Shown piece after piece: positions 2,097 to 9,263 of a DNA stretch of 10,837 nt (positions are counted from its first letter, which is position 1; each line of letters opens with the position of its first letter). The stretch is from a virus: UHGV virus genome UHGV-0335500; one strand, written 5' to 3'. Position numbers and translations under genes: made by a program. Under the pieces are notes generated by a model. It did not search any database. It saw only the letters and a program-made list of their open reading frames with translations, and was not told the origin of the DNA.

Positions 2097-2215
2097 AGAA
2101 AAGGTGTTGGTTCAGTTGGTTCAGTTGGTTCAATTTGTAAAGAGTATTGTTTTATAAGGATTTTATTCTTTTTATTGAACCAACACTGAACCAACAACAC
2201 GGCATTTTGAACCAA
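2097..2215. repeat. Iteron cluster A: 3 tight direct TTGGTTCA(G/A) repeats, AT-rich spacer, 3 inverted TGAACCAA repeats; ori/crr-like
   Basis: Direct 9-mers at 2107-2115, 2116-2124 and 2125-2133. AT-rich spacer 2134-2174. Inverted copies (C/T)TGAACCAA at 2175-2183, 2186-2194 and 2207-2215. Positions 2101-2144 are the exact reverse complement of 8601-8644. Lies 17 bp after the primase stop. Confidence 0.8.
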
Positions 2216-2315
2216 CACAACGTGACTGAATTGATGAGCACAACATCTGGCTGGCATTAGAGAGTGTTTTACGAAATCTGAACACCACATCACTGGTTTC
2301 AGTGGGAGATTGATG

Positions 2316-2771
2316 ATGAAGATAATCGCAAAGGCTTTTCATCATGTATTTGGCAAAGTATCCGATTTGCCATCTGTAATACCGATGAACAACAGAAGGG
2401 AGATGCTGCTTGATATGGTTGTGTTCCCATACATAGACCTTTCTGAACCAATGAAAGCAACTCTTTTCAGAAAGTATCTTGGCGACTTTAAACGCCGTTT
2501 TACAGGCGTTAACGGGATGGTTGATATCTGCTCCATCAGAGATATTGTTGAACTTGCAGGGATTAATTTGTGGGGAGAAGCGGCAGCAGCATACAAATGG
2601 CTTGAACGCCTGCACTGTGTTTCATTCAGTGACATGAGTGCTGATATCGCTTTAATGGTTCCTCACAAAATCAATATGGTCTTTGCTGGTGGCAATTACA
2701 CTTATCCATGGAACCAGGAACAAAGAGAGAACAGGAAAGCTCACGCCATGAAGAGTAATGCGACTCCATAA
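2316..2771 (+). CDS. Hypothetical protein (151 aa), stand-alone transcription unit
   Basis: ORF track 2310..2771. Shine-Dalgarno GGGAGA at 2304-2309 is best spaced for the ATG at 2316. An intrinsic terminator follows. No motif recognised. Confidence 0.6.
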   Translation: MKIIAKAFHHVFGKVSDLPSVIPMNNRREMLLDMVVFPYIDLSEPMKATLFRKYLGDFKRRFTGVNGMVDICSIRDIVELAGINLWGEAAAAYKWLERLHCVSFSDMSADIALMVPHKINMVFAGGNYTYPWNQEQRENRKAHAMKSNATP

Positions 2772-2823
2772 ATATAGTTTTTAGAGTCCATAAAAAAACT
2801 GTCAAAACCTGACATACAGAACG

Positions 2824-2856
2824 ATGCCACCAGCTACTGAACGGTGGCATTTTTTT
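2824..2856 (+). terminator. Rho-independent terminator after the 151-aa gene
   Basis: Stem ATGCCACC (2824-2831) pairs with GGTGGCAT (2843-2850), 11-nt loop, then a T run at 2851-2856. Just upstream, TGTCA-N5-TGACA (2801-2815) preceded by an A run could terminate on the opposite strand. Confidence 0.6.
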
Positions 2857-2887
2857 GTGCTATTTGTTTCATATTTTGCAATCACAA

Positions 2888-2918
2888 TGATGAATGTTGC
2901 GTTTTATGAAACTATAAT
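2888..2918 (+). promoter_or_regulatory. Putative sigma70 promoter for the 57-aa/489-aa/701-aa operon
   Basis: Perfect -10 TATAAT at 2913-2918. The -35 is weak (TGATGA/ATGAAT near 2888-2895). Located between the upstream terminator and the strong Shine-Dalgarno at 2941-2947. Confidence 0.35.
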
Positions 2919-2951
2919 GACTGTTGTTTTATACAGTTCTAAGGGGGCGTT

Positions 2952-3125
2952 ATGGCTATTTCAGTAAAGCCAGTATTGATAAGTGAGAAGCAAATGGAAG
3001 CGATAAAGAAAATTCAGGAGGAGCAGCGTAAAAAATCAGAGGTAGGAGTTGCGCCAACGATCCACGAAATTGCTCGGGGATTAATGGATAAGGCGCTGGC
3101 TTACACTTTAACTGGACGTGGGTAA
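2952..3125 (+). CDS. Small (57 aa) Lys/Glu-rich protein, possible ribbon-helix-helix DNA-binding protein; first gene of operon
   Basis: Not in the ORF track (under 60 aa). ATG 2952 is preceded by AAGGGGG at 2941-2947. Translation is MAISVKPVLISEKQMEAIKKIQEEQRKKSEVGVAPTIHEIARGLMDKALAYTLTGRG. The strand-helix-loop-helix pattern is by eye only. Stop TAA at 3123-3125 abuts the next start. Confidence 0.5.
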   Translation: MAISVKPVLISEKQMEAIKKIQEEQRKKSEVGVAPTIHEIARGLMDKALAYTLTGRG

Positions 3126-3129
3126 ATCA

Positions 3130-4596
3130 ATGGCTACGTGGCAACAGGGTATTAATTCTGGTGGTTTTCTGGCTGGCATCGGTACGCAAAATGAGAATGC
3201 GCCAAAGGCAAGCGACATTAACGCAACGCTTGGTCTGATCCGCGAAAACAATGAACTGGCTCGCTCAGGTGCAAATAACGTTGCTCTGACAGGTCTTCGT
3301 GGTCTGGCTGGCGTTGCTGATATTTATAAGCAGCAGCAACAGCAGGAGCGTAAAGCGGCATTCCAGAAAGGTTATGCAGATGCTTATGCGTCCGGTGACA
3401 GGGAGCAGATGCGTAATCTTATTACAGCATTCCCAGAAGAGTTTGAGGAAGTCCGTAAAGGGATGAGTTATGTCGATGATGCTCAAAGGGATGATTATGG
3501 CAATCTGGCGCTCAAAGCACAGGTAGCCTCATCGCTTGGTCAGGGCGCATTTGGCAGGTTCATGATGGATAATGAGCAGGAGATGCGTCGTTTAGGTATC
3601 CCTCCAGAAACTATTGCTGAAATGCAGGTTAATGACCCGCAGGGCTTCCAGCATTTCGCAGGTAATCTGGCGCTGTTTTCTCTCGGTCATGAGAAGTATT
3701 TCGATATCAAAGATCAAATGGAAGGTCGGGATATTGAGCGTGGCAAGTTGGCAGAGACAATCCGCAGCAATCAGGCTGGCGAAGCACTTCAGGCGAGAGG
3801 GCAGGATATTAGCCGAGCAAATGCGTTAACGTCAGCATATGCACCAACAGCAGCAATGCAGAATTACAATCAGTACGCTCAAATGTTAAAGGCGGATCCA
3901 GAGGGGGCGGCGGCATTTGCGGCAGCGGCTGGAATTAATACAAACGCCAAAAAATTAATGAGTGTTAGAGAAAACGATGATGGCACTGTCACAAAATACT
4001 ACACAGACGGAAGTGAAGAGCAGGGAAAACTAAACCAGCCAATATCTGGAGATGGGTTTCGTCCAATAGCTTTGCCAACAGCCCAAAAGATCATGGAAAA
4101 GTCGCCAGAAGGGGCTAAAAAAGCTGCTGGATTTGCATACAGGGTTAGGGATGCTCTTGATTCAATAGATACACTGAAAGACCAGCTTAGCCCACAGCGA
4201 GTGGCGATCATTAATAATGCTTTGGGTAATGGGACGCTGGCTAACTTAACGCTCAGCCCAACAGAACAGCAATACGTTGTTAATGCTAATGACGCAATAA
4301 TGGCAATACTCCGTCAGGAAACAGGGGCAGCCATCGTACCTGCTGAAATGTCAAAATATTATCAAATGTATTTCCCTCAGCCTGGCGACTCCACAAAAAC
4401 CATTGATACCAAGCGCCGGAAGATGGAAAACCAGTTCAATTCGCTGAAAGCTGCTTCTGGTCGAGCTTATGATGCTTTGCGGGTTATTTCAGCAGTTGAC
4501 AGAGGAACTTCTTCTTCGTCGCAGACATTGCCGCAATCTGAGCAGGTATCACAGCCAGCAGCCAGCAGTAACTTTTCTTCACTATGGGGTGATTAA
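3130..4596 (+). CDS. Hypothetical Ala/Gln-rich protein (about 489 aa), no recognisable catalytic motif
   Basis: Long ORF (track 3118..4596 from GTG; ATG 3130 preferred). Contains a poly-Gln run (KQQQQQERK) and is predicted to be largely helical and low-complexity. The stop overlaps the next start as TAATG at 4594-4598. Confidence 0.85.
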   Translation: MATWQQGINSGGFLAGIGTQNENAPKASDINATLGLIRENNELARSGANNVALTGLRGLAGVADIYKQQQQQERKAAFQKGYADAYASGDREQMRNLITAFPEEFEEVRKGMSYVDDAQRDDYGNLALKAQVASSLGQGAFGRFMMDNEQEMRRLGIPPETIAEMQVNDPQGFQHFAGNLALFSLGHEKYFDIKDQMEGRDIERGKLAETIRSNQAGEALQARGQDISRANALTSAYAPTAAMQNYNQYAQMLKADPEGAAAFAAAAGINTNAKKLMSVRENDDGTVTKYYTDGSEEQGKLNQPISGDGFRPIALPTAQKIMEKSPEGAKKAAGFAYRVRDALDSIDTLKDQLSPQRVAIINNALGNGTLANLTLSPTEQQYVVNANDAIMAILRQETGAAIVPAEMSKYYQMYFPQPGDSTKTIDTKRRKMENQFNSLKAASGRAYDALRVISAVDRGTSSSSQTLPQSEQVSQPAASSNFSSLWGD

Positions 4597-6701
4597 TGGC
4601 TAAAGCATGGAAAGATGTTATCGCCTCTCCACAGTATCAGGCGTTAGCACCAGAACAAAAAGCGCAGGCTCAGGAGCAATACTTCAATGAAGTCGTGGCC
4701 CCGCAAGCCGGAGAAAGTGTAGAGCAGGCTAAGCAGGCTTTTTATGCTGCCTATCCACTACCATCAACGAATGAAATAGACCGATCCCAATCAGCAACTC
4801 AAAATATTCAACATACATCATCTGATAATTCTCTTGCGTCAGGGTATGCAAAGTTAGCTACTCAGCAAAGAGAGGGGCTTGAGCGTTCAGCAGAACAGGG
4901 AGCCAGTCTTGGGGCTGCGATGCGCGATGCTATAACAGGCGAAAGCCGAATGACTCCAGAGATGGAGAGACTGCAAAATGTCGACCTTGCCCCAGAGTTA
5001 ACCTCACTCAGCATGGATGCTCTAAAAGCTCGATGGTCTCAACTTTTCGGCTCTGACGCATCTCAGGAAAAGATTCTTCAGAGCATGGGAGCGAAATTAA
5101 GGCAGGATGAGAAGGGTAACACTATCGTTTCCCTGCCATCCGGTGATTATGCTCTGAACAAGCCGGGTTTATCGCCGCAAGACGTGGCATCGTTTCTGGC
5201 TAATGCGCTGGCGTTTACACCAGCGGGCAGGGCTGGAACGGTGCTTGGTGCCATAGGAAAATCAGCAGCTACAGATTTAGCACTACAGGGAGCCACTAGC
5301 CTTGCTGGTGGAGAAGATATTGATCCGTTACAAACGGTAATTTCTGCTGGCATTGGTGGTATTGGTAAGGGGCTGGAAAATACAGCGAGTGCGGTTTCGA
5401 GGGCTGTTCGTGGTGATATGTCGCCTGAAGCAAAGGCTGCTGTCGACTTTGCATCGGAAAGAAATCTGCCGTTAATGACCAGTGACGTACTGAAAGATAA
5501 AAACACTGTGCAGAGTCTGGCCCAGAAAACAGGCGAAAAAATTCCTTTTTTTGGAACGGGTACGAACAGGCTGAATCAACAACAGGCTCGGGAAAATCTG
5601 GTCAGAACATATAACGATGGTCTGGGAGGCATTTCAGATAAACAGCTTTATGAGTCTGCTACTAAAGGGCAGCAAAAATTCATTGAGGCCGCAGGTAAGC
5701 GATATAACCGCATAATTGACGCTATGGGGGATACCCCTGTCGACCTATCAAACACGGTAAAAGCTATCGACAATCAGATTGCCGTGTTAAGCCGCCCGGG
5801 CAAATCTCAGGATAGAGCCGCGGTAAAAGTCTTGCAGCAATTTAAAGACGATATCACCAGCGGGCCAAATGACCTGCGTCTGGCGAGGGAAAACAGAACC
5901 GATCTTCGAAAGCGATTTATGGCGTCATCTGACACTGTTGATAAAGATACGCTCCAGAAAGCCAGCGATATTATCTACAAGGCATATACGGCGGATATGA
6001 AAAAAGCCGTAGCCAAAAATCTTGGAGCAGACGAAGCCATTAATATGGCAAGGGTTGATCGCTCATGGTCTAAATTCAATGACATGATGGGAAGAACGCG
6101 CGTTCAAAAGGCAATAGCCAGCGGCAAGGCCACGCCTGAGGATGTAACAAAACTCGTGTTTAGTCAAAGCCCATCAGAACGTTCTCAGCTTTACAGGCTT
6201 CTGGATGACAATGGTAGGCAAAACGCACGAGCAGCCATAGTTCAGAATGCTGTAGATAAGGCGACTGATCCGTCTGGAAATATCAGTGTTGAGAAGTTTA
6301 TTAATGCGTTACACCGGAACAGGAAGCAATCAGCAACTTTCTTTAAAGGCGTGCACGGAAAGGAACTGGACGGCATTATTAAATACCTCAACGATACCAG
6401 ACAGGCGGCAAAGGTTGACGGTCAGAAATTAAACAGCCAGAAACTTTATGGCCTGCTGGTTGGTGGAGGCGCTATAAATGCGGCAGTTCTGGCGGGGATG
6501 CTGAAAACGGCTGCGTTTGTTGTTCCTGCTGCTGGTGCTTTAGGCGGAGCAGCGAAGGCATACGAAAGCCCTGTTATACGAAATGCCTTATTACGTCTGG
6601 CAAATACGCCAAAAGGTAGCACAGCATATGACAGAGCGATCAGTACAGTCACACAATCACTGACCACAGCAGCACAAGCATCGCAAAAGGAAGCTCAATA
6701 A
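4596..6701 (+). CDS. Hypothetical large protein (701 aa) with glycine-zipper-like hydrophobic segments; possibly membrane-interacting
   Basis: ORF 4596..6701, translationally coupled to the upstream gene. Gly/Ala-rich hydrophobic stretches: TVLGAIGKSAATDLALQGATSLAGG, VISAGIGGIGKGL and C-terminal LYGLLVGGGAINAAVLAGMLKTAAFVVPAAGALGGAAKAY. No canonical Walker A or nuclease motif seen. Confidence 0.9.
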   Translation: MAKAWKDVIASPQYQALAPEQKAQAQEQYFNEVVAPQAGESVEQAKQAFYAAYPLPSTNEIDRSQSATQNIQHTSSDNSLASGYAKLATQQREGLERSAEQGASLGAAMRDAITGESRMTPEMERLQNVDLAPELTSLSMDALKARWSQLFGSDASQEKILQSMGAKLRQDEKGNTIVSLPSGDYALNKPGLSPQDVASFLANALAFTPAGRAGTVLGAIGKSAATDLALQGATSLAGGEDIDPLQTVISAGIGGIGKGLENTASAVSRAVRGDMSPEAKAAVDFASERNLPLMTSDVLKDKNTVQSLAQKTGEKIPFFGTGTNRLNQQQARENLVRTYNDGLGGISDKQLYESATKGQQKFIEAAGKRYNRIIDAMGDTPVDLSNTVKAIDNQIAVLSRPGKSQDRAAVKVLQQFKDDITSGPNDLRLARENRTDLRKRFMASSDTVDKDTLQKASDIIYKAYTADMKKAVAKNLGADEAINMARVDRSWSKFNDMMGRTRVQKAIASGKATPEDVTKLVFSQSPSERSQLYRLLDDNGRQNARAAIVQNAVDKATDPSGNISVEKFINALHRNRKQSATFFKGVHGKELDGIIKYLNDTRQAAKVDGQKLNSQKLYGLLVGGGAINAAVLAGMLKTAAFVVPAAGALGGAAKAYESPVIRNALLRLANTPKGSTAYDRAISTVTQSLTTAAQASQKEAQ

Positions 6702-6760
6702 CAGATGACCATGGATGGTTGGCTATAATAGTAATTAGTTTTTTCAAATAGTTATGAACA

Positions 6761-7159
6761 TTAACACTTGCCTTTAACATTGCCGACAAATGAGCCTGTA
6801 AATGAGCCTATATCAGATCGACTAATTGTTCGTGTATGGATCACTTTTCCGTCATTTGAGATTGCCCATGTGACAAGCGTCAGTTGACCATCTCGATAGC
6901 TTCTTCCCATCATGGCATTCGGAGATAGCGGGTAATAATCAATACCTCCACCTATACCATCTTTTGCCAAGATAAGATCCGCCTTCTCTTTACTTATTAC
7001 CAAATGAAAGGTATCTGGTATAGATGATAACTTATAGTTATACCCATCTGAACTTGAGGCTTCTTGTCCTTTCAGATCACCAATAATCCAGCATTCAGCG
7101 TTCGCTCCAAAAGAAGCAAATAATAAACCGGAGACAACCAATCGCTTCAATTGATTCAC
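6761..7159 (-). CDS. Small secreted (periplasmic) protein, about 132 aa with Sec signal peptide; unknown function
   Basis: Lies inside ORF-track 6761..7417 (minus). Preferred start is GTG at 7159-7157, preceded by a strong Shine-Dalgarno AAGGGAGGG. N-terminus MNQLKRLVVSGLLFASFGANA|ECW is a typical signal peptide with an AXA cleavage site. Mature part is about 111 aa with Cys near both ends. Convergent with the 701-aa gene. Confidence 0.65.
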   Translation of the reverse strand: MNQLKRLVVSGLLFASFGANAECWIIGDLKGQEASSSDGYNYKLSSIPDTFHLVISKEKADLILAKDGIGGGIDYYPLSPNAMMGRSYRDGQLTLVTWAISNDGKVIHTRTISRSDIGSFTGSFVGNVKGKC

Positions 7160-7239
7160 ACCAACCCTCCCTTTAGCGTTGTTTAGAATGGCAATCATCA
7201 TATATCCAAGACATGGCATTTGGTACATAGCTTGGGTCG

Positions 7240-7252
7240 GGATTTCAAATCC
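7240..7252. promoter_or_regulatory. 13-bp perfect palindrome GGATTTCAAATCC upstream of the secreted-protein gene; candidate operator
   Basis: Palindrome seen directly, about 80-95 bp upstream of the GTG at 7159 on the minus strand. Confidence 0.35.
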
Positions 7253-7343
7253 GCCCCCGTTGATGGGGTCGTTACAGTACGCGCATATCCGCTTTATGTG
7301 AAACAGGAAGATTTTTCTGATATCACTGCCACAGCAAAACACC

Positions 7344-7367
7344 AATTTCGTGACCAGTACGCGCGCG
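7344..7367. repeat. Dispersed 24-bp repeat, copy R2 (AATTTCGTGACCAGTACGCGCGCG)
   Basis: Shares AATTTC-N2-GA-N2-A-N-TACGCGCGCG with copies at 7631-7656 and 9240-9263. Shorter partial copies sit at 7275-7285 (ACAGTACGCGC) and 7405-7415 (GACCAGTACGC). Confidence 0.6.
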
Positions 7368-7630
7368 AGGGGTATCAGTTGCAAAAAATTTTGCAACTGC
7401 GTCCGACCAGTACGCACACGATGGCGGGGAGCACCATAAAACTGTTCTCTACATAAGACAGAGTGGTGGTGATGTGTTGATTATCGGCGTATATGCGCAC
7501 AGGACGCGCTATGACGATATTTTATGCGGGTACACCAATCACATGTATCTGGTGTGATCAATCGCGTTACATGACATCTCATGTTGTGCTGGTGATTATC
7601 ACGACGTTCTGAATCTGGCCTTTGCCTGAT

Positions 7631-7656
7631 ATTTTGCGACAAGTACGCGCGCGTAG
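7631..7656. repeat. Dispersed 24-bp repeat, copy R4, with perfect palindromic core GTACGCGCGCGTAC
   Basis: ATTTTGCGACAAGTACGCGCGCGTAG. The alternating CG core is self-complementary. Confidence 0.6.
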
Positions 7657-7681
7657 CATCGACAGCATACACATTGGATAT

Positions 7682-7882
7682 TCATTTTGTGACCAATGCG
7701 ATAAGTAGCGGGATAAGAATTGATAAAATCAACAGGACGATGATCCACTTTTGATTCTCGTCCATCTTATCTGCTAGGCGACGCTCCATTCCGTGCATAT
7801 CACCGCGAATGGCAATCATCTCATTGCGAACATCCGAGAAGTGGTTGGCTTGATGTTCAATGTGTGGCGTTCTGCCTTTCAT
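7682..7882 (-). CDS. Small tail-anchored membrane protein (66 aa); possibly XhlA/holin-like
   Basis: ATG at 7882-7880 preceded by Shine-Dalgarno GGTGAGGA. Translation MKGRTPHIEHQANHFSDVRNEMIAIRGDMHGMERRLADKMDENQKWIIVLLILSILIPLLIALVTK has a charged N-terminal part and one C-terminal transmembrane helix. Family assignment is from memory, low confidence. Confidence 0.55.
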   Translation of the reverse strand: MKGRTPHIEHQANHFSDVRNEMIAIRGDMHGMERRLADKMDENQKWIIVLLILSILIPLLIALVTK

Positions 7883-7961
7883 GTCTGATCCTCACCTATC
7901 GTCACCACCTGATGGTGTATAAAGGTATTAGCCCAAGCAGCTTTCCAATGGGCACTCATGT

Positions 7962-8417
7962 TTATACGCTGACCTTACAATCAATCACCGCTTTTAACTT
8001 TTCAGCATTGCTTCCCTGACGCTTCCACGCGCTGTAAATATCTTTATCCCACGCTTTACCAGCTTTTGTTTGATAGCCTGCTTCATTGATCCGTTCAGCT
8101 ATCACACGCCCATTATCAAATCCCTGTTGGATGGTATCGGCAATGATCTTTATAACTGCCGTTTCGTTATATGGTTTTGGTGGGATGTTCGGCTTTCCGG
8201 CAATAAGCGACGCAGCGGCTTTTTCCATGCGCTCCACCAGCCCAAGCATTCGTGAATCAATAGACTTTTCCGGCTGCCCCAGCTTCATGCGAATCGCATC
8301 AACAAGCCAAGAGGTTTTATCTCCTCCAGAAGCGAGAACAGACCGATTAAACTCATCCTGCAATTCAGATGGGATGCGGAACGCGATCAGATTAGATTTG
8401 CTCATTGCAAAGACCAT
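7962..8417 (-). CDS. Ribbon-helix-helix-like DNA-binding protein (147-151 aa)
   Basis: ORF track 7962..8417 (minus); alternative start ATG at 8405-8403 (MSKSNLIAFRIPSELQDEFNRSV...). N-terminus fits a beta-strand plus two helices. Co-directional with and 79 bp upstream of the 66-aa membrane protein gene, so probably one operon. Confidence 0.65.
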   Translation of the reverse strand: MVFAMSKSNLIAFRIPSELQDEFNRSVLASGGDKTSWLVDAIRMKLGQPEKSIDSRMLGLVERMEKAAASLIAGKPNIPPKPYNETAVIKIIADTIQQGFDNGRVIAERINEAGYQTKAGKAWDKDIYSAWKRQGSNAEKLKAVIDCKVSV

Positions 8418-8435
8418 ATCAGTGAGTAATATCCA

Positions 8436-8464
8436 TACAGTATACCACTGTATAACACTGTTAT
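8436..8464. promoter_or_regulatory. Adjacent palindromes TACAGT-N5-ACTGTA and ATAACA-C-TGTTAT upstream of the ribbon-helix-helix gene; candidate autoregulatory operator
   Basis: Inverted repeats read directly at 8436-8452 and 8452-8464, in the 5' region of the leftward gene. Confidence 0.4.
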
Positions 8465-8520
8465 ACGCTCAAATATCAGCCAGAAAATAACAGACCAATC
8501 ACAAATCTATCGCTGTGTTG

Positions 8521-8644
8521 TTGGTTCAGAGCTGGGCTGTGTTGGTTCAAAATGAGTTGATGTTGGTTCAATATTTTAGAAAAAACACAATAAAAACAAC
8601 GCTCTTTACAAATTGAACCAACTGAACCAACTGAACCAACACCT
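8521..8644. repeat. Iteron cluster B: inverted copy of cluster A (3 loose TTGGTTCA at 21-bp spacing, AT-rich spacer, 3 tight TGAACCAA); ori/crr-like
   Basis: TTGGTTCA(G/A) at 8521-8529, 8542-8550 and 8563-8571. AT-rich 8572-8612. (T/C)TGAACCAA at 8613-8621, 8622-8630 and 8631-8639. Positions 8601-8644 are the reverse complement of 2101-2144. Confidence 0.8.
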
Positions 8645-8676
8645 TTTTGCTTATCTATATAATCTGAGAGGCAGAA

Positions 8677-8964
8677 ATGATAAAGGACAGGAAAGCTGAA
8701 GAGCTGGAGTCAAAAGGGCTATACCGGAGAGCTGCCGCACGATGGGCAGAAGTCATGATGCTGGCAGATGGCGATAAAGAACGTGAACATGCAGTAAACA
8801 GACGCTCTGAATGTATCCGTAAGGCGGCACGCCCACCAGCAACTACAGACAGATTCGGAGATTTAAGACAGGCAGTTAAGCGGACTCATTCGGCTCTTGG
8901 TATGGATGAGGAAGCGAGAGGGTACTTCAGGCGTTATCGCGATAAAGATTGCCAGAGACAGTAA
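8677..8964 (+). CDS. PerC-family-like small transcriptional regulator (95 aa)
   Basis: ORF with Shine-Dalgarno GAGG 6 nt before the ATG. AEELESKGLYRRAAARWAEVMM resembles the conserved N-terminal signature of PerC/Pch-type regulators as I recall it. Confidence 0.6.
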   Translation: MIKDRKAEELESKGLYRRAAARWAEVMMLADGDKEREHAVNRRSECIRKAARPPATTDRFGDLRQAVKRTHSALGMDEEARGYFRRYRDKDCQRQ

Positions 8965-9084: not shown

Positions 9085-9239
9085 AAATTTGCACTCTGCC
9101 AGCCAACGCAATTTCTCGTTGGCGGAAATATCAGGTATTTACTGAACGAACGGTCTACCAGTCTGTTCAGTTACCAGTTGCACATGGCTGTTTCATGTGA
9201 GAACGGAGGTTTTTTTCGGACATCGCTATTGGGTACAGC

Positions 9240-9263
9240 AATTTCACGAGCAATACGCGCGCG
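9240..9263. repeat. Dispersed 24-bp repeat, copy R5 (AATTTCACGAGCAATACGCGCGCG)
   Basis: Same motif as 7344-7367 and 7631-7656, about 1.6 kb away in the junction region. Confidence 0.55.

What the first reader, a model, noticed from the sequence alone, without database searches (positions are those of the whole stretch)
6761..7260. Convergent secreted small protein with its own palindromic operator
A small protein with a clear Sec signal peptide and a strong Shine-Dalgarno is encoded tail-to-tail with the 701-aa gene, with a perfect 13-bp palindrome upstream. Small periplasmic proteins on prophages and satellites are often superinfection-exclusion factors or lysozyme inhibitors. Its position suggests it belongs to the same cargo, though it is transcribed separately.
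Basis: inference. Interest (0 to 1): 0.4.

Follow-up and report, generated by a model that had tools for sequence, protein, structure and literature searches.

The report
Secreted Hex-family phage-exclusion gene candidate
This is a real gene for a small exported protein related to phage 434's Hex exclusion protein, and it sits in the slot where P22-type phages keep their superinfection-exclusion gene, so it most likely helps a phage-parasitic island keep rival phages out.

Summary
The ORF is real. It runs 6761-7159 (-), has a GTG start and a GGAGG Shine-Dalgarno, and encodes 132 aa. It lies tail-to-tail with the P22 gp16-type 701-aa ejection-protein gene. It encodes a Sec-type signal peptide (cleavage ANA|ECW) and a confidently modelled all-beta barrel (pLDDT 92) with conserved first and last cysteines.

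It belongs to the phage 434 Hex / Sf6 gp38 family (PHROG 2651, which has no Pfam, NCBIfam or PADLOC model). Hex was defined genetically as the function by which imm434 lysogens exclude P22.

Family members occur in two places: directly after 434-type cI, or in the sieA slot of P22-like phages (mnt side, convergent on gene 16). The window has the second arrangement, inside an EcCIMP1-like PICI.

In E. coli genomes the same upstream 509-nt block, SD and GTG drive three interchangeable ORFs. These are this Hex-like gene (126 genomes), a 116-aa membrane protein (229) and a true SieA homologue (103).

The best reading is a periplasmic superinfection-exclusion factor against P22-like phages (confidence about 0.5). 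The lysozyme-inhibitor idea is not supported.

The "13-bp palindromic operator" is really an inverted repeat with 11-nt arms at 7376-7399. It lies outside the stated coordinates, 217 nt upstream, and its role is unproven.

The parts
6761..7159 (-). Hex-family CDS, 132 codons plus TAA stop, GTG start
   Evidence: ORF and translation. The same CDS is annotated by PGAP in strain ISHS7. PHROG 2651 matches at E 1.3e-22. tblastn to 434 Hex, Sf6 gp38 and Emek orf129 gives E 1e-11 to 5e-15.
7097..7159 (-). Signal peptide, codons 1-21 (MNQLKRLVVSGLLFASFGANA); predicted SPase I cut before E22
   Evidence: Read from the sequence. The family alignment shows an invariant A(-1)/x-C-W junction. 124 of 125 representatives have a hydrophobic N-terminus plus AxA. 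There is no lipobox, because position -1 to the Cys is E/D/N/Q.
6764..7096 (-). Mature domain, 111 aa: nine-strand all-beta barrel with Cys at mature positions 2 and 111
7165..7174 (-). Shine-Dalgarno AAAGGGAGGG; the GGAGG core ends 6 nt before the GTG
   Evidence: Sequence. It is conserved together with the GTG in islands that carry other ORFs.
6719..7153 (-). Swappable cassette: the hex-like ORF from codon 3 plus 42 nt of 3' flank
   Evidence: Strain EC14 aligns with the window at 4225-6718 (95%) and 7154-8955 (98%), but not in between. This cassette is present in 126 of 5,426 complete E. coli genomes.
7154..7662 (-). Conserved non-coding upstream block shared by all cassette types; presumed promoter/leader region
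   Evidence: About 96-99% identical in 545 E. coli genomes. Two 1-nt indels against the O111 copy break every ORF in it. RNA fold z-score is -0.86. No Rfam hit.
7376..7399 (.).
   Evidence: Chance of arms of 11 nt or more in such a window is about 3.5%. No T-run follows on either strand, so it is not an intrinsic terminator. The half-site occurs nowhere else in the window.
7272..7650 (-). Four to five direct copies of GCGCGTACTGGTC (7272, 7352, 7405, 7497?, 7638); two of them flank the palindrome
   Evidence: Seven matches in the window against 1.5 expected; 0 of 200 shuffles reach this number. A 29-nt version recurs at 9235-9263.
6702..6760 (.). 59-nt convergent intergenic spacer with no predicted intrinsic terminator
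4596..6701 (+). P22 gp16-type ejection protein (701 aa), the convergent neighbour
   Evidence: PHROG 770 'DNA transfer protein' at E 2.6e-155. 67% identical to the phage N7 protein (ORF13) that follows gp20 in the gene-16 position.
3118..4596 (+). P22 gp20-type ejection protein (492 aa)
   Evidence: Pfam Inj_translocase at E 1.6e-83.

Best explanation
The gene encodes a Sec-exported, disulfide-closed periplasmic beta-barrel of about 12 kDa. It belongs to the phage 434 Hex / Sf6 gp38 family. It occupies the superinfection-exclusion ('sieA') slot of a P22-type ejection-protein module carried by an EcCIMP1-like phage-inducible chromosomal island, integrated between yicC and dinD.

The most likely function is this. 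The resident island expresses the protein, and in the periplasm it blocks DNA delivery by incoming P22-like phages. [quoted passage not shown] It would be a soluble periplasmic counterpart of the inner-membrane protein SieA.

Shown here: the gene and its start, family membership, family-wide signal peptide and Cys pair, the barrel fold (predicted), and allelism with a SieA homologue.

Inferred: export, the disulfide, exclusion activity, and the stage and target of the block.
For: 1. Homology to Hex.
- PHROG 2651 matches at E 1.3e-22.
- The protein is 30-34% identical over its full length to 434 Hex, Sf6 gp38 and Emek orf129.
- Hex is the function by which imm434 lysogens of Salmonella exclude P22 (PMC3564112).

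2. Export is a family-wide trait.
- 124 of 125 distant representatives have a hydrophobic N-terminus plus an AxA site directly before x-C-[WYF].
- 118 of 125 have a C-terminal Cys.
- The reported N-terminus of the stable Hex fragment 'sHex' (E43 of the 158-aa ORF) is exactly the first residue after the predicted cleavage site ANS|ECW.

3. Position.
- In phage Emek and IMG/VR contigs L037 and L039 the homologue lies convergent on gene 16. In Emek and L039 an mnt gene lies upstream on the same strand.
- That is where P22 keeps sieA (PMC10883804).

4. Allelic replacement.
- With identical flanks, SD and GTG, E. coli islands carry one of three ORFs: this one (126 genomes), a 116-aa polytopic membrane protein (229) or a 204-aa protein (103).
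- The 204-aa protein is a SieA homologue: BLASTP against P22 SieA gives E 8e-8 and ends at the RYPGEA motif, and PHROG 7745 'SieA-like' matches at E 3.5e-4.

5. Island biology.
- The primase region is 98.7% identical to EcCIMP1.
- EcCIMP1 is mobilised by the phage Kapi1 and adds to superinfection immunity. PADLOC and DefenseFinder found no known defence system in it (PMC11773190).

6. SieA-escape mutations map to gp16 and gp20. This shows that the conduit is a target of exclusion factors encoded at this slot.
Against: - No experiment exists on this protein, and identity to Hex is only about 30%.
- The stage at which Hex excludes P22 is not known from the sources I could read. It could act after DNA entry, as SieB does.
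- The only biochemical paper on Hex assigns it a cytoplasmic role, blocking RecA-stimulated cleavage of the 434 and P22 repressors.
- EcCIMP1 itself lacks this cassette. It has a truncated upstream block and a lipoprotein gene instead, so its immunity phenotype cannot be credited to a Hex-like gene.
- Two clusters of substitutions in the neighbouring gp16-like gene are not strictly linked to the hex cassette. About 71 genomes carry the window-type patch, against 126 with the cassette. There is therefore no co-variation signal for a direct gp16 interaction.
- No promoter was identified, and expression in the resident state is assumed.
- The signal peptide was judged from sequence rules, not by SignalP.
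Confidence: 0.5

Rival explanations
1. Another prophage- or island-expressed periplasmic function unrelated to phage exclusion. Examples would be a lipocalin-like ligand binder or an envelope/host-interaction factor carried as a 'moron'.
For: The fold search returns only generic small barrels: NHBA C-domain, PknI sensor, Cap15 barrel, lipocalins, FABPs, avidins. An Aeromonas homologue sits at the edge of an integrase/restriction island, not next to phage entry genes.
Against: - The founding member of the family has an exclusion phenotype.
- Every enterobacterial phage or island context examined is a classic exclusion locus: cI-adjacent like rexAB, or the sieA slot.
- The gene is allelic with a SieA homologue.
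Confidence: 0.2
2. A periplasmic inhibitor of a peptidoglycan hydrolase (PliC/MliC-like). It would protect the cell from lysozymes, or neutralise a virion-borne murein hydrolase of incoming phage. The second case would itself be an exclusion mechanism, as with T4 Spackle.
For: - It is a small Sec-exported beta-barrel, which is the general shape of PliC/MliC.
- gp16-type neighbours are sometimes annotated 'lytic transglycosylase domain'.
Against: - There is no Pfam MliC or Ivy hit even at E up to 1.
- PhiA ranks 59th, below many unrelated barrels.
- A profile search against all PDB sequences finds nothing.
Confidence: 0.1
3. A Hex-like 'repressor protection' function: a cytoplasmic protein that prevents RecA-stimulated autocleavage of a cI-type repressor and so stabilises lysogeny.
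For: - PMC3564112: hex deletion raises spontaneous induction of imm434 30-fold in a recA-dependent way. A 61-residue fragment inhibits cleavage of the 434 and P22 repressors in vitro.
- 25 of 27 IMG/VR homologues sit directly after a 434-type cI.
Against: - A signal peptide and a terminal Cys pair are conserved across the whole family, including 434 Hex itself. This argues for a periplasmic location, separated from RecA and repressors.
- The active 'sHex' is half of a predicted barrel, refolded from guanidine.
- The annotated genes of this island include no S24/LexA-type repressor.
- The sieA-slot and Aeromonas copies are not next to cI.
Confidence: 0.07
4. A decaying hitch-hiker ORF with no function, retained only by linkage to the ejection-protein genes.
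For: A few truncated or hybrid copies exist (P0004, P0006; H41/H100).
Against: - The ORF is intact in about 125 genomes at 95-100% identity.
- It has a strong SD.
- The deep family has about 200 clusters at 50% identity, with conserved motifs and a confident fold.
Confidence: 0.03

Closest known systems
Phage 434 Hex (also Sf6 gene 38 protein, HK446 gp39; PHROG 2651)
   Same: Homologous over the full length (30-34% identity). Same size, same signal peptide / x-C-W junction, the same FVGxVxGxC C-terminus, and encoded at a locus that is prophage-expressed in the phage relatives. Hex is the genetic determinant of P22 exclusion by imm434 lysogens.
   Different: Only about 30% identical. It is not coupled to a cI gene; it lies convergent on a gp16-type gene in a PICI. 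Hex's published biochemical role (blocking RecA-mediated repressor cleavage) has no obvious substrate here.
Phage P22 SieA
   Same: Same genomic slot: immediately after gene 16, convergent on it, and separated from the upstream genes on its own strand. Here it is literally allelic with a SieA homologue under the same SD and start codon. SieA blocks DNA injection by P22-like phages, and escape mutations fall in gp16 and gp20.
   Different: There is no sequence or fold relationship. SieA is a polytopic inner-membrane protein with an FxRYPxEAxxFNK motif. This protein is a soluble secreted beta-barrel.
Phage T4 Spackle (Sp)
   Same: A small Sec-exported periplasmic protein that excludes superinfecting phage at the envelope-penetration step. 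This is the closest functional analogue for a soluble periplasmic exclusion factor (from general knowledge, not tested here).
   Different: Spackle is helical and inhibits the gp5 tail lysozyme. There is no homology, and no evidence that this protein inhibits a hydrolase.
PliC/MliC periplasmic lysozyme inhibitors
   Same: Small exported eight-stranded beta-barrels.
EcCIMP1 (E. coli PICI mobilised by the phage Kapi1)
   Same: Same island family: int, AlpA-type HTH, AntA/B, DUF4222, Ash, TOPRIM-DUF927 primase (98.7% identity), gp20/gp16-type genes and PerC. EcCIMP1 contributes to superinfection immunity with no known defence system detected.
   Different: EcCIMP1 has a truncated upstream block and no convergent cassette. 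A 232-aa lipoprotein gene follows its gp16-like gene.

Membership tests
Hex / Sf6 gp38 family (PHROG 2651) | Significant full-length sequence similarity to family members | tested here: met
   PHROG 2651 matches at E 1.3e-22, covering residues 17-132 against profile positions 1-116 of 117. tblastn gives E 5e-15 to 1e-11 with 95-98% coverage. The protein is recovered in the profile searches.
Hex / Sf6 gp38 family (PHROG 2651) | N-terminal Sec signal peptide ending A-x-A, followed by x-C-W | tested here: met
   ANA|ECW in this protein. A(-1), C and W are invariant in A1. 124 of 125 representatives show the layout. SignalP was not available.
Hex / Sf6 gp38 family (PHROG 2651) | C-terminal FVG-x-V-x-G-x-C with a Cys that pairs with the N-terminal Cys | tested here: met
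   SFVGNVKGKC in this protein. C2 and C111 are invariant in A2. The first and last strands of the model are E2-14 and E97-110. The disulfide itself was not measured.
Hex / Sf6 gp38 family (PHROG 2651) | Encoded at a locus expressed from the prophage (after cI, or in the immI/sieA slot) | tested here: met
   The gene is convergent on the gp16-type gene, as in Emek, L037 and L039. Expression itself was not tested.
Hex / Sf6 gp38 family (PHROG 2651) | Excludes P22-like phage | not testable with these tools
   This is a phenotype known only for 434 Hex (PMC3564112, which cites Susskind & Botstein 1980).
SieA | Polytopic inner-membrane protein with the FxRYPxEAxxFNK motif | tested here: not met
   There is no hydrophobic segment beyond the signal peptide. 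The model is all-beta and soluble. The motif is absent. The SieA-like PHROG 7745 did not match this protein.
SieA | Gene located next to and convergent on gene 16 of a P22-type module | tested here: met
   The slot is shared with a SieA homologue in strain A34.
PliC/MliC lysozyme inhibitors | Match to Pfam MliC, or close structural similarity to PliC/MliC | tested here: not met
Ivy lysozyme inhibitors | Match to the Ivy Pfam domain | tested here: not met
   No Pfam hit at E up to 1. The model is entirely beta.
Lipoprotein exclusion factors (Cor, Llp, Ltp type) | Lipobox [LVI][ASTVI][GAS]C at the end of the signal peptide | tested here: not met
   The residue before the Cys is E here, and E/D/N/Q/S/K across the family. 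The predicted cut is SPase I, after A-x-A.

The most novel reading that the evidence does not exclude
Hex-family proteins are a previously unrecognised class of soluble periplasmic superinfection-exclusion factors. They would stop P22-type phages by interfering with the ejection-protein conduit in the periplasm, and are interchangeable with the membrane protein SieA at one expression platform in PICIs and P22-like phages. The published cytoplasmic RecA/repressor role of 434 Hex would then be secondary or an artefact of a refolded half-barrel. The reported sHex N-terminus is simply the signal-peptidase cleavage site.
Probability: 0.35. Interest if true: 0.65.

Novelty: new member of a known kind. 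Interest (0 to 1): 0.5.

Why it matters
- It gives a testable identity to a gene that is annotated 'hypothetical' in 126 of the 5,426 complete E. coli genomes searched.
- It points to a concrete candidate locus for the unexplained superinfection immunity conferred by EcCIMP1-type PICIs.
- It shows a tidy natural experiment. One promoter/SD/start platform carries a SieA homologue, an unknown membrane protein or a Hex-family secreted protein. This suggests three non-homologous solutions to the same exclusion problem.
- It exposes a conflict in the literature. Every Hex-family member, including 434 Hex, carries a signal peptide and a terminal Cys pair. That is hard to reconcile with the only published mechanism, which is cytoplasmic inhibition of RecA-mediated repressor cleavage.

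Tried and rejected
- **Rfam.** An E-value scan of the whole window found nothing real in the 7160-7680 gap.
- **RNA fold of the upstream block.** The z-score is -0.86, so there is no evidence for a structured RNA.
- **Promoters and terminators.** The scan found no sigma-70-like site on the minus strand upstream of the gene and no terminator in the convergent spacer. By eye, the best -10 is TATGAT at 7202-7197, with a poor -35.
- **Palindrome across species.** A scan of 185,579 species genomes gave only 5 hits, none in Enterobacteriaceae and all in unrelated taxa. Cross-species conservation of the palindrome could therefore not be tested.
- **Palindromes upstream of phage hex-like genes.** Nothing similar was found in Emek, L037 or L039.
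- **Coding potential of the upstream block.** A plus-strand 78-aa ORF (7220-7456) and a minus-strand extension to 218 aa were both rejected. Two 1-nt indels against the O111 copy break them, and there are no family hits.
- **Co-variation between the hex cassette and gp16.** Window-specific substitution patches at aa 298-340 and 594-649 are not strictly linked to the cassette.
- **Reading the 151-aa upstream gene as Mnt/Arc-like RHH.** This was an impression by eye. BLASTP, Pfam and the PDB search do not support it.
- **Other libraries.** PADLOC and NCBIfam gave no hits. BFVD gave no informative structural match. The afdb50 library was unavailable.

Full report
**1. What is in the sequence**

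The minus strand carries an ORF that ends with TAA at 6761-6763. The longest reading starts at GTG 7417 (218 aa), but the functional start is GTG 7159-7157.
- It is preceded by AAAGGGAGGG (7174-7165), whose GGAGG core ends 6 nt before the start.
- PGAP calls exactly this 399-nt CDS in E. coli ISHS7, which matches the window at 99.6-99.9% (WP_001426179.1, 'hypothetical protein').
- Every homologue begins 18-22 residues before the conserved Cys.
- In other E. coli islands the same SD+GTG is fused to two unrelated ORFs. In one of them the upstream in-frame ATG is out of frame.

The product is MNQLKRLVVSGLLFASFGANA|ECWIIGDLKG...SFVGNVKGKC. It has two basic residues, an 11-residue hydrophobic core and an A-N-A site. 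There is no lipobox.

The gene is convergent on the 701-aa gene (stop at 6701), with 59 nt between the stops and no predicted terminator.

- The only strong inverted repeat is CAGTTGCAAAA-AA-TTTTGCAACTG at 7376-7399, with 11-nt arms. It lies 217 nt upstream of the start.
- It is the longest inverted repeat in the window, but 3.5% of Markov-simulated windows do as well.

**2. Family**

Pfam, NCBIfam and PADLOC have no model for the protein. PHROG 2651 ('unknown function') matches at E 1.3e-22.

tblastn against 50,697 phage records finds 16 records at about 30-33% identity and 95-98% coverage.
- Phage 434 and lambda imm434: 'repressor protection protein', which is Hex.
- Sf6 gene 38, HK446, HK633, Sf101, Huey and Chlobot.
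- The P22-like Salmonella phages Emek (orf129) and ST-35.

A profile search of 5.8 billion proteins gives 101 clusters, from Escherichia, Salmonella, Citrobacter, Enterobacter, Klebsiella, Yersinia and Aeromonas. An exhaustive HMM search of 1.84 billion representatives gives 200 clusters at E up to 1e-3, almost all 120-140 aa.

Among 125 full-length representatives:
- 124 have a hydrophobic N-terminus.
- Position -1 of the predicted cleavage site is Ala in 87. Position -3 is A/S/V/T in 99.
- The conserved Cys follows one residue after the cut.
- 118 have a Cys in the last 12 residues.

An AlphaFold2 model of the mature domain, built from 57 sequences, is confident (pLDDT 92.4, pTM 0.83). It is a nine-strand all-beta meander whose first and last strands carry the two invariant cysteines.

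**3. What is known about the founding member**

PMC3564112 states the following.
- hex is co-transcribed with 434 cI from PRM.
- Susskind and Botstein defined Hex ('heterologous exclusion') as the function by which imm434 lysogens of Salmonella exclude P22.
- A hex deletion raises spontaneous induction 30-fold in recA+ cells.
- A 61-residue fragment, 'sHex' (E43-N103 of a 158-aa ORF), inhibits RecA-stimulated cleavage of the 434 and P22 repressors in vitro.
- Full-length Hex is toxic when over-expressed.

The paper never mentions a signal peptide, membrane or periplasm.

Translating the 158-aa ORF shows that E43 is the first residue after the predicted cleavage site ANS|ECW of the 134-aa protein. 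The reported N-terminus of sHex therefore coincides with the predicted mature N-terminus. sHex is also only about half of the predicted barrel. I take this as indirect support for processing, and as a reason for caution about the cytoplasmic mechanism. It is an inference, not a demonstration.

**4. Genomic contexts**

Of 27 IMG/VR viral loci that encode a family member:
- 25 have it directly after a 434-type cI (77-100% identical).
- 2 (L037, L039) have it in a P22-type module, convergent on gene 16.

In L039 the order is arc, mnt, a second small secreted ORF, hex-like, then gene 16 in the opposite direction. Emek has the same arrangement.

In P22 that position is occupied by sieA, which is convergent on gene 16 and has its own annotated promoter. 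PMC10883804 shows the following.
- Escape mutations lie in the C-terminal regions of gp16 and gp20.
- sieA always lies between genes 16 and 9.
- Only 22 of 66 P22-like phages carry it.

The window has this layout: gp20-type (Pfam Inj_translocase, E 1.6e-83) and gp16-type (PHROG 770, E 2.6e-155; 67% identical to the phage N7 protein in the gene-16 position) on the plus strand, then the hex-like gene convergent on them. An Aeromonas homologue lies at the edge of an integrase/restriction island. The family is therefore not tied to cI.

**5. The island**

In ISHS7 the element lies between yicC and dinD. Its genes, in order, are: a tyrosine integrase, a small HTH protein, AntA/AntB, DUF4222, Ash, a TOPRIM-DUF927 primase, the two ejection-protein genes, the hex-like gene, two small minus-strand genes and PerC.

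Its primase region is 98.7% identical to EcCIMP1 of E. coli MP1. PMC11773190 reports that EcCIMP1 is a PICI mobilised by the phage Kapi1. It contributes to superinfection immunity against Kapi1, and PADLOC and DefenseFinder found no known defence system in it.

EcCIMP1 itself does not carry the hex-like cassette. It has a truncated upstream block, and a 232-aa lipoprotein gene follows its gp16-like gene.

**6. Cassette swapping**

The 509 nt upstream of the gene (7154-7662) occur at about 96-99% identity in 545 of 5,426 complete E. coli genomes.

Strain EC14 aligns with the window at 4225-6718 (95%) and 7154-8955 (98%). Only 6719-7153 is replaced, which is the ORF from codon 3 plus 42 nt.

Three alternative ORFs use the same SD and GTG:

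| Cassette | Genomes |
|---|---|
| Hex-like gene (this one) | 126 |
| 116-aa polytopic membrane protein (WP_000560496.1) | 229 |
| 204-aa membrane protein, SieA homologue | 103 |

The 204-aa protein is a SieA homologue on two counts. BLASTP against P22 SieA gives E 8e-8, with 29% identity over 108 residues, ending at the shared RYPGEA motif. PHROG 7745 'SieA-like' matches at E 3.5e-4.

Just beyond the block, other islands carry an Abi-family gene or an ImmA/IrrE gene in place of the 66-aa gene.

This is the pattern of an exclusion/defence hotspot. It is the strongest contextual argument that the hex-like gene is an exclusion determinant.

**7. The upstream block and the palindrome**

The block looks non-coding.
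- Two 1-nt indels against the O111 copy break every ORF in it.
- No family hits were found.
- There is no Rfam match and no unusual RNA stability.

The block contains the 24-bp inverted repeat and four to five direct copies of GCGCGTACTGGTC, two of which flank the repeat (0 of 200 shuffles reach this count).

The inverted repeat is not followed by a T-run on either strand. Its half-site is unique in the window. It is not found upstream of hex-like genes in phages, and no related (enterobacterial) copy turned up in the species-representative genomes.

It may be a protein-binding site, but nothing ties it to this gene specifically, because islands with other cassettes have it too. 'Own operator' is therefore unproven. 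I put it at roughly 0.2.

**8. Mechanism and rivals**

The best-supported reading (about 0.5) is a soluble periplasmic exclusion factor against P22-like phages that acts at DNA delivery. It would be a functional counterpart of SieA, reached by a different protein architecture.

Rivals:
- Another periplasmic moron function (about 0.2).
- A hydrolase inhibitor (about 0.1). This would overlap with exclusion if the target were virion-borne.
- The published repressor-protection role (about 0.07). It is disfavoured by the family-wide export signals and by the absence of an annotated S24 repressor in this island.
- A functionless ORF (about 0.03).

A test for co-adaptation with the neighbouring gp16 gene was negative. 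The window's gp16 differs from the EC14 and A34 alleles in two patches (aa 298-340 and 594-649). The second patch is in the same relative region as the SieA-escape sites of P22 gp16. However, only about 71 genomes carry that patch against 126 with the cassette, and two hex-carrying genomes checked individually have the other allele.

**9. Verdict**

The palindrome detail is wrong in size and place.

The interpretation as an exclusion factor is supported by homology and by allelism with SieA. The lysozyme-inhibitor and private-operator ideas are not supported.

The gene is a new, divergent member of a known but poorly understood family. The wider point, that the Hex family is exported and may be a periplasmic exclusion class, deserves an experiment.

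Noticed in passing
window 2099-2219 and 8538-8647: Two inverted-repeat segments made of GTTGGTTCA-type iterons (55 nt at 96% and 38 nt at 84% complementary). They flank the 6.3-kb module that holds the ejection-protein genes, the hex-like gene and the two small minus-strand genes. One copy lies just after the primase gene and the other just before PerC. This recalls the two iteron clusters (ori and crr) of satellite P4, though that comparison is from memory.
   Followed up: partly
window 7272-7650 (-) and 9235-9263: A direct repeat GCGCGTACTGGTC occurs 4-5 times in the conserved upstream block, and two copies bracket the palindrome. A 29-nt version recurs downstream of PerC. None of 200 shuffles reaches this count. 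Its function is unknown.
   Followed up: partly
L011 10656-11045; L007 8656-9045 (replaces window 6719-7153): The commonest cassette at this slot (229 E. coli genomes) encodes a 116-aa polytopic membrane protein (WP_000560496.1). It has no hit in Pfam, PHROGs, PADLOC or NCBIfam and no similarity to SieA. It is an uncharacterised candidate exclusion protein.
   Followed up: partly
L045 3958-4821; L047 3876-4838 (equivalent to window ~7663-7950): Immediately beyond the conserved block, other islands carry an ImmA/IrrE metallopeptidase plus a hypothetical gene, or an Abi-family gene, in place of the 66-aa gene. This is a second variable, defence-like spot.
   Followed up: no
window 4596-6701 (aa 298-340 and 594-649 of the 701-aa protein): The gp16-type protein differs from the alleles in EC14 and A34 in two tight patches. 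The second patch is at the same relative position as the SieA-escape sites of P22 gp16. About 71 genomes have the window-type patch and about 343 have the other. The patch is not strictly linked to the hex cassette.
   Followed up: partly
L050 12632-13330 (EcCIMP1, E. coli MP1): In EcCIMP1 the gp16-like gene is followed, on the same strand, by a 232-aa protein with a lipobox (LLAGC), and the upstream block is truncated to the equivalent of 7234-7662. This lipoprotein is a candidate for the unexplained EcCIMP1 superinfection immunity.
   Followed up: no
L002 2938-3414 (phage 434): The published N-terminus of the Hex fragment sHex (E43 of the 158-aa ORF) is the residue right after the predicted signal-peptidase site ANS|ECW. 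The published work does not consider export.
   Followed up: yes
L039 4577-4930: In a P22-like viral contig a second small protein with a signal peptide (117 aa, Gly/Asn/Thr/Gln-rich) sits between mnt and the hex-like gene.
   Followed up: no
window 7682-7882 (-): A 66-aa protein with a C-terminal transmembrane segment (PHROG 6324, unknown function; weak holin-family hit at E 0.024) lies upstream of the conserved block on the same strand as the hex-like gene.
   Followed up: no
window 2310-3125 versus L050 17517-18827: The window's island encodes gp20- and gp16-type proteins but has no gp7-sized ORF. Only 153-aa and 57-aa ORFs with no family hits precede gp20. EcCIMP1 has a DUF2824 gene and a 225-aa gene in that place.
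   Followed up: no
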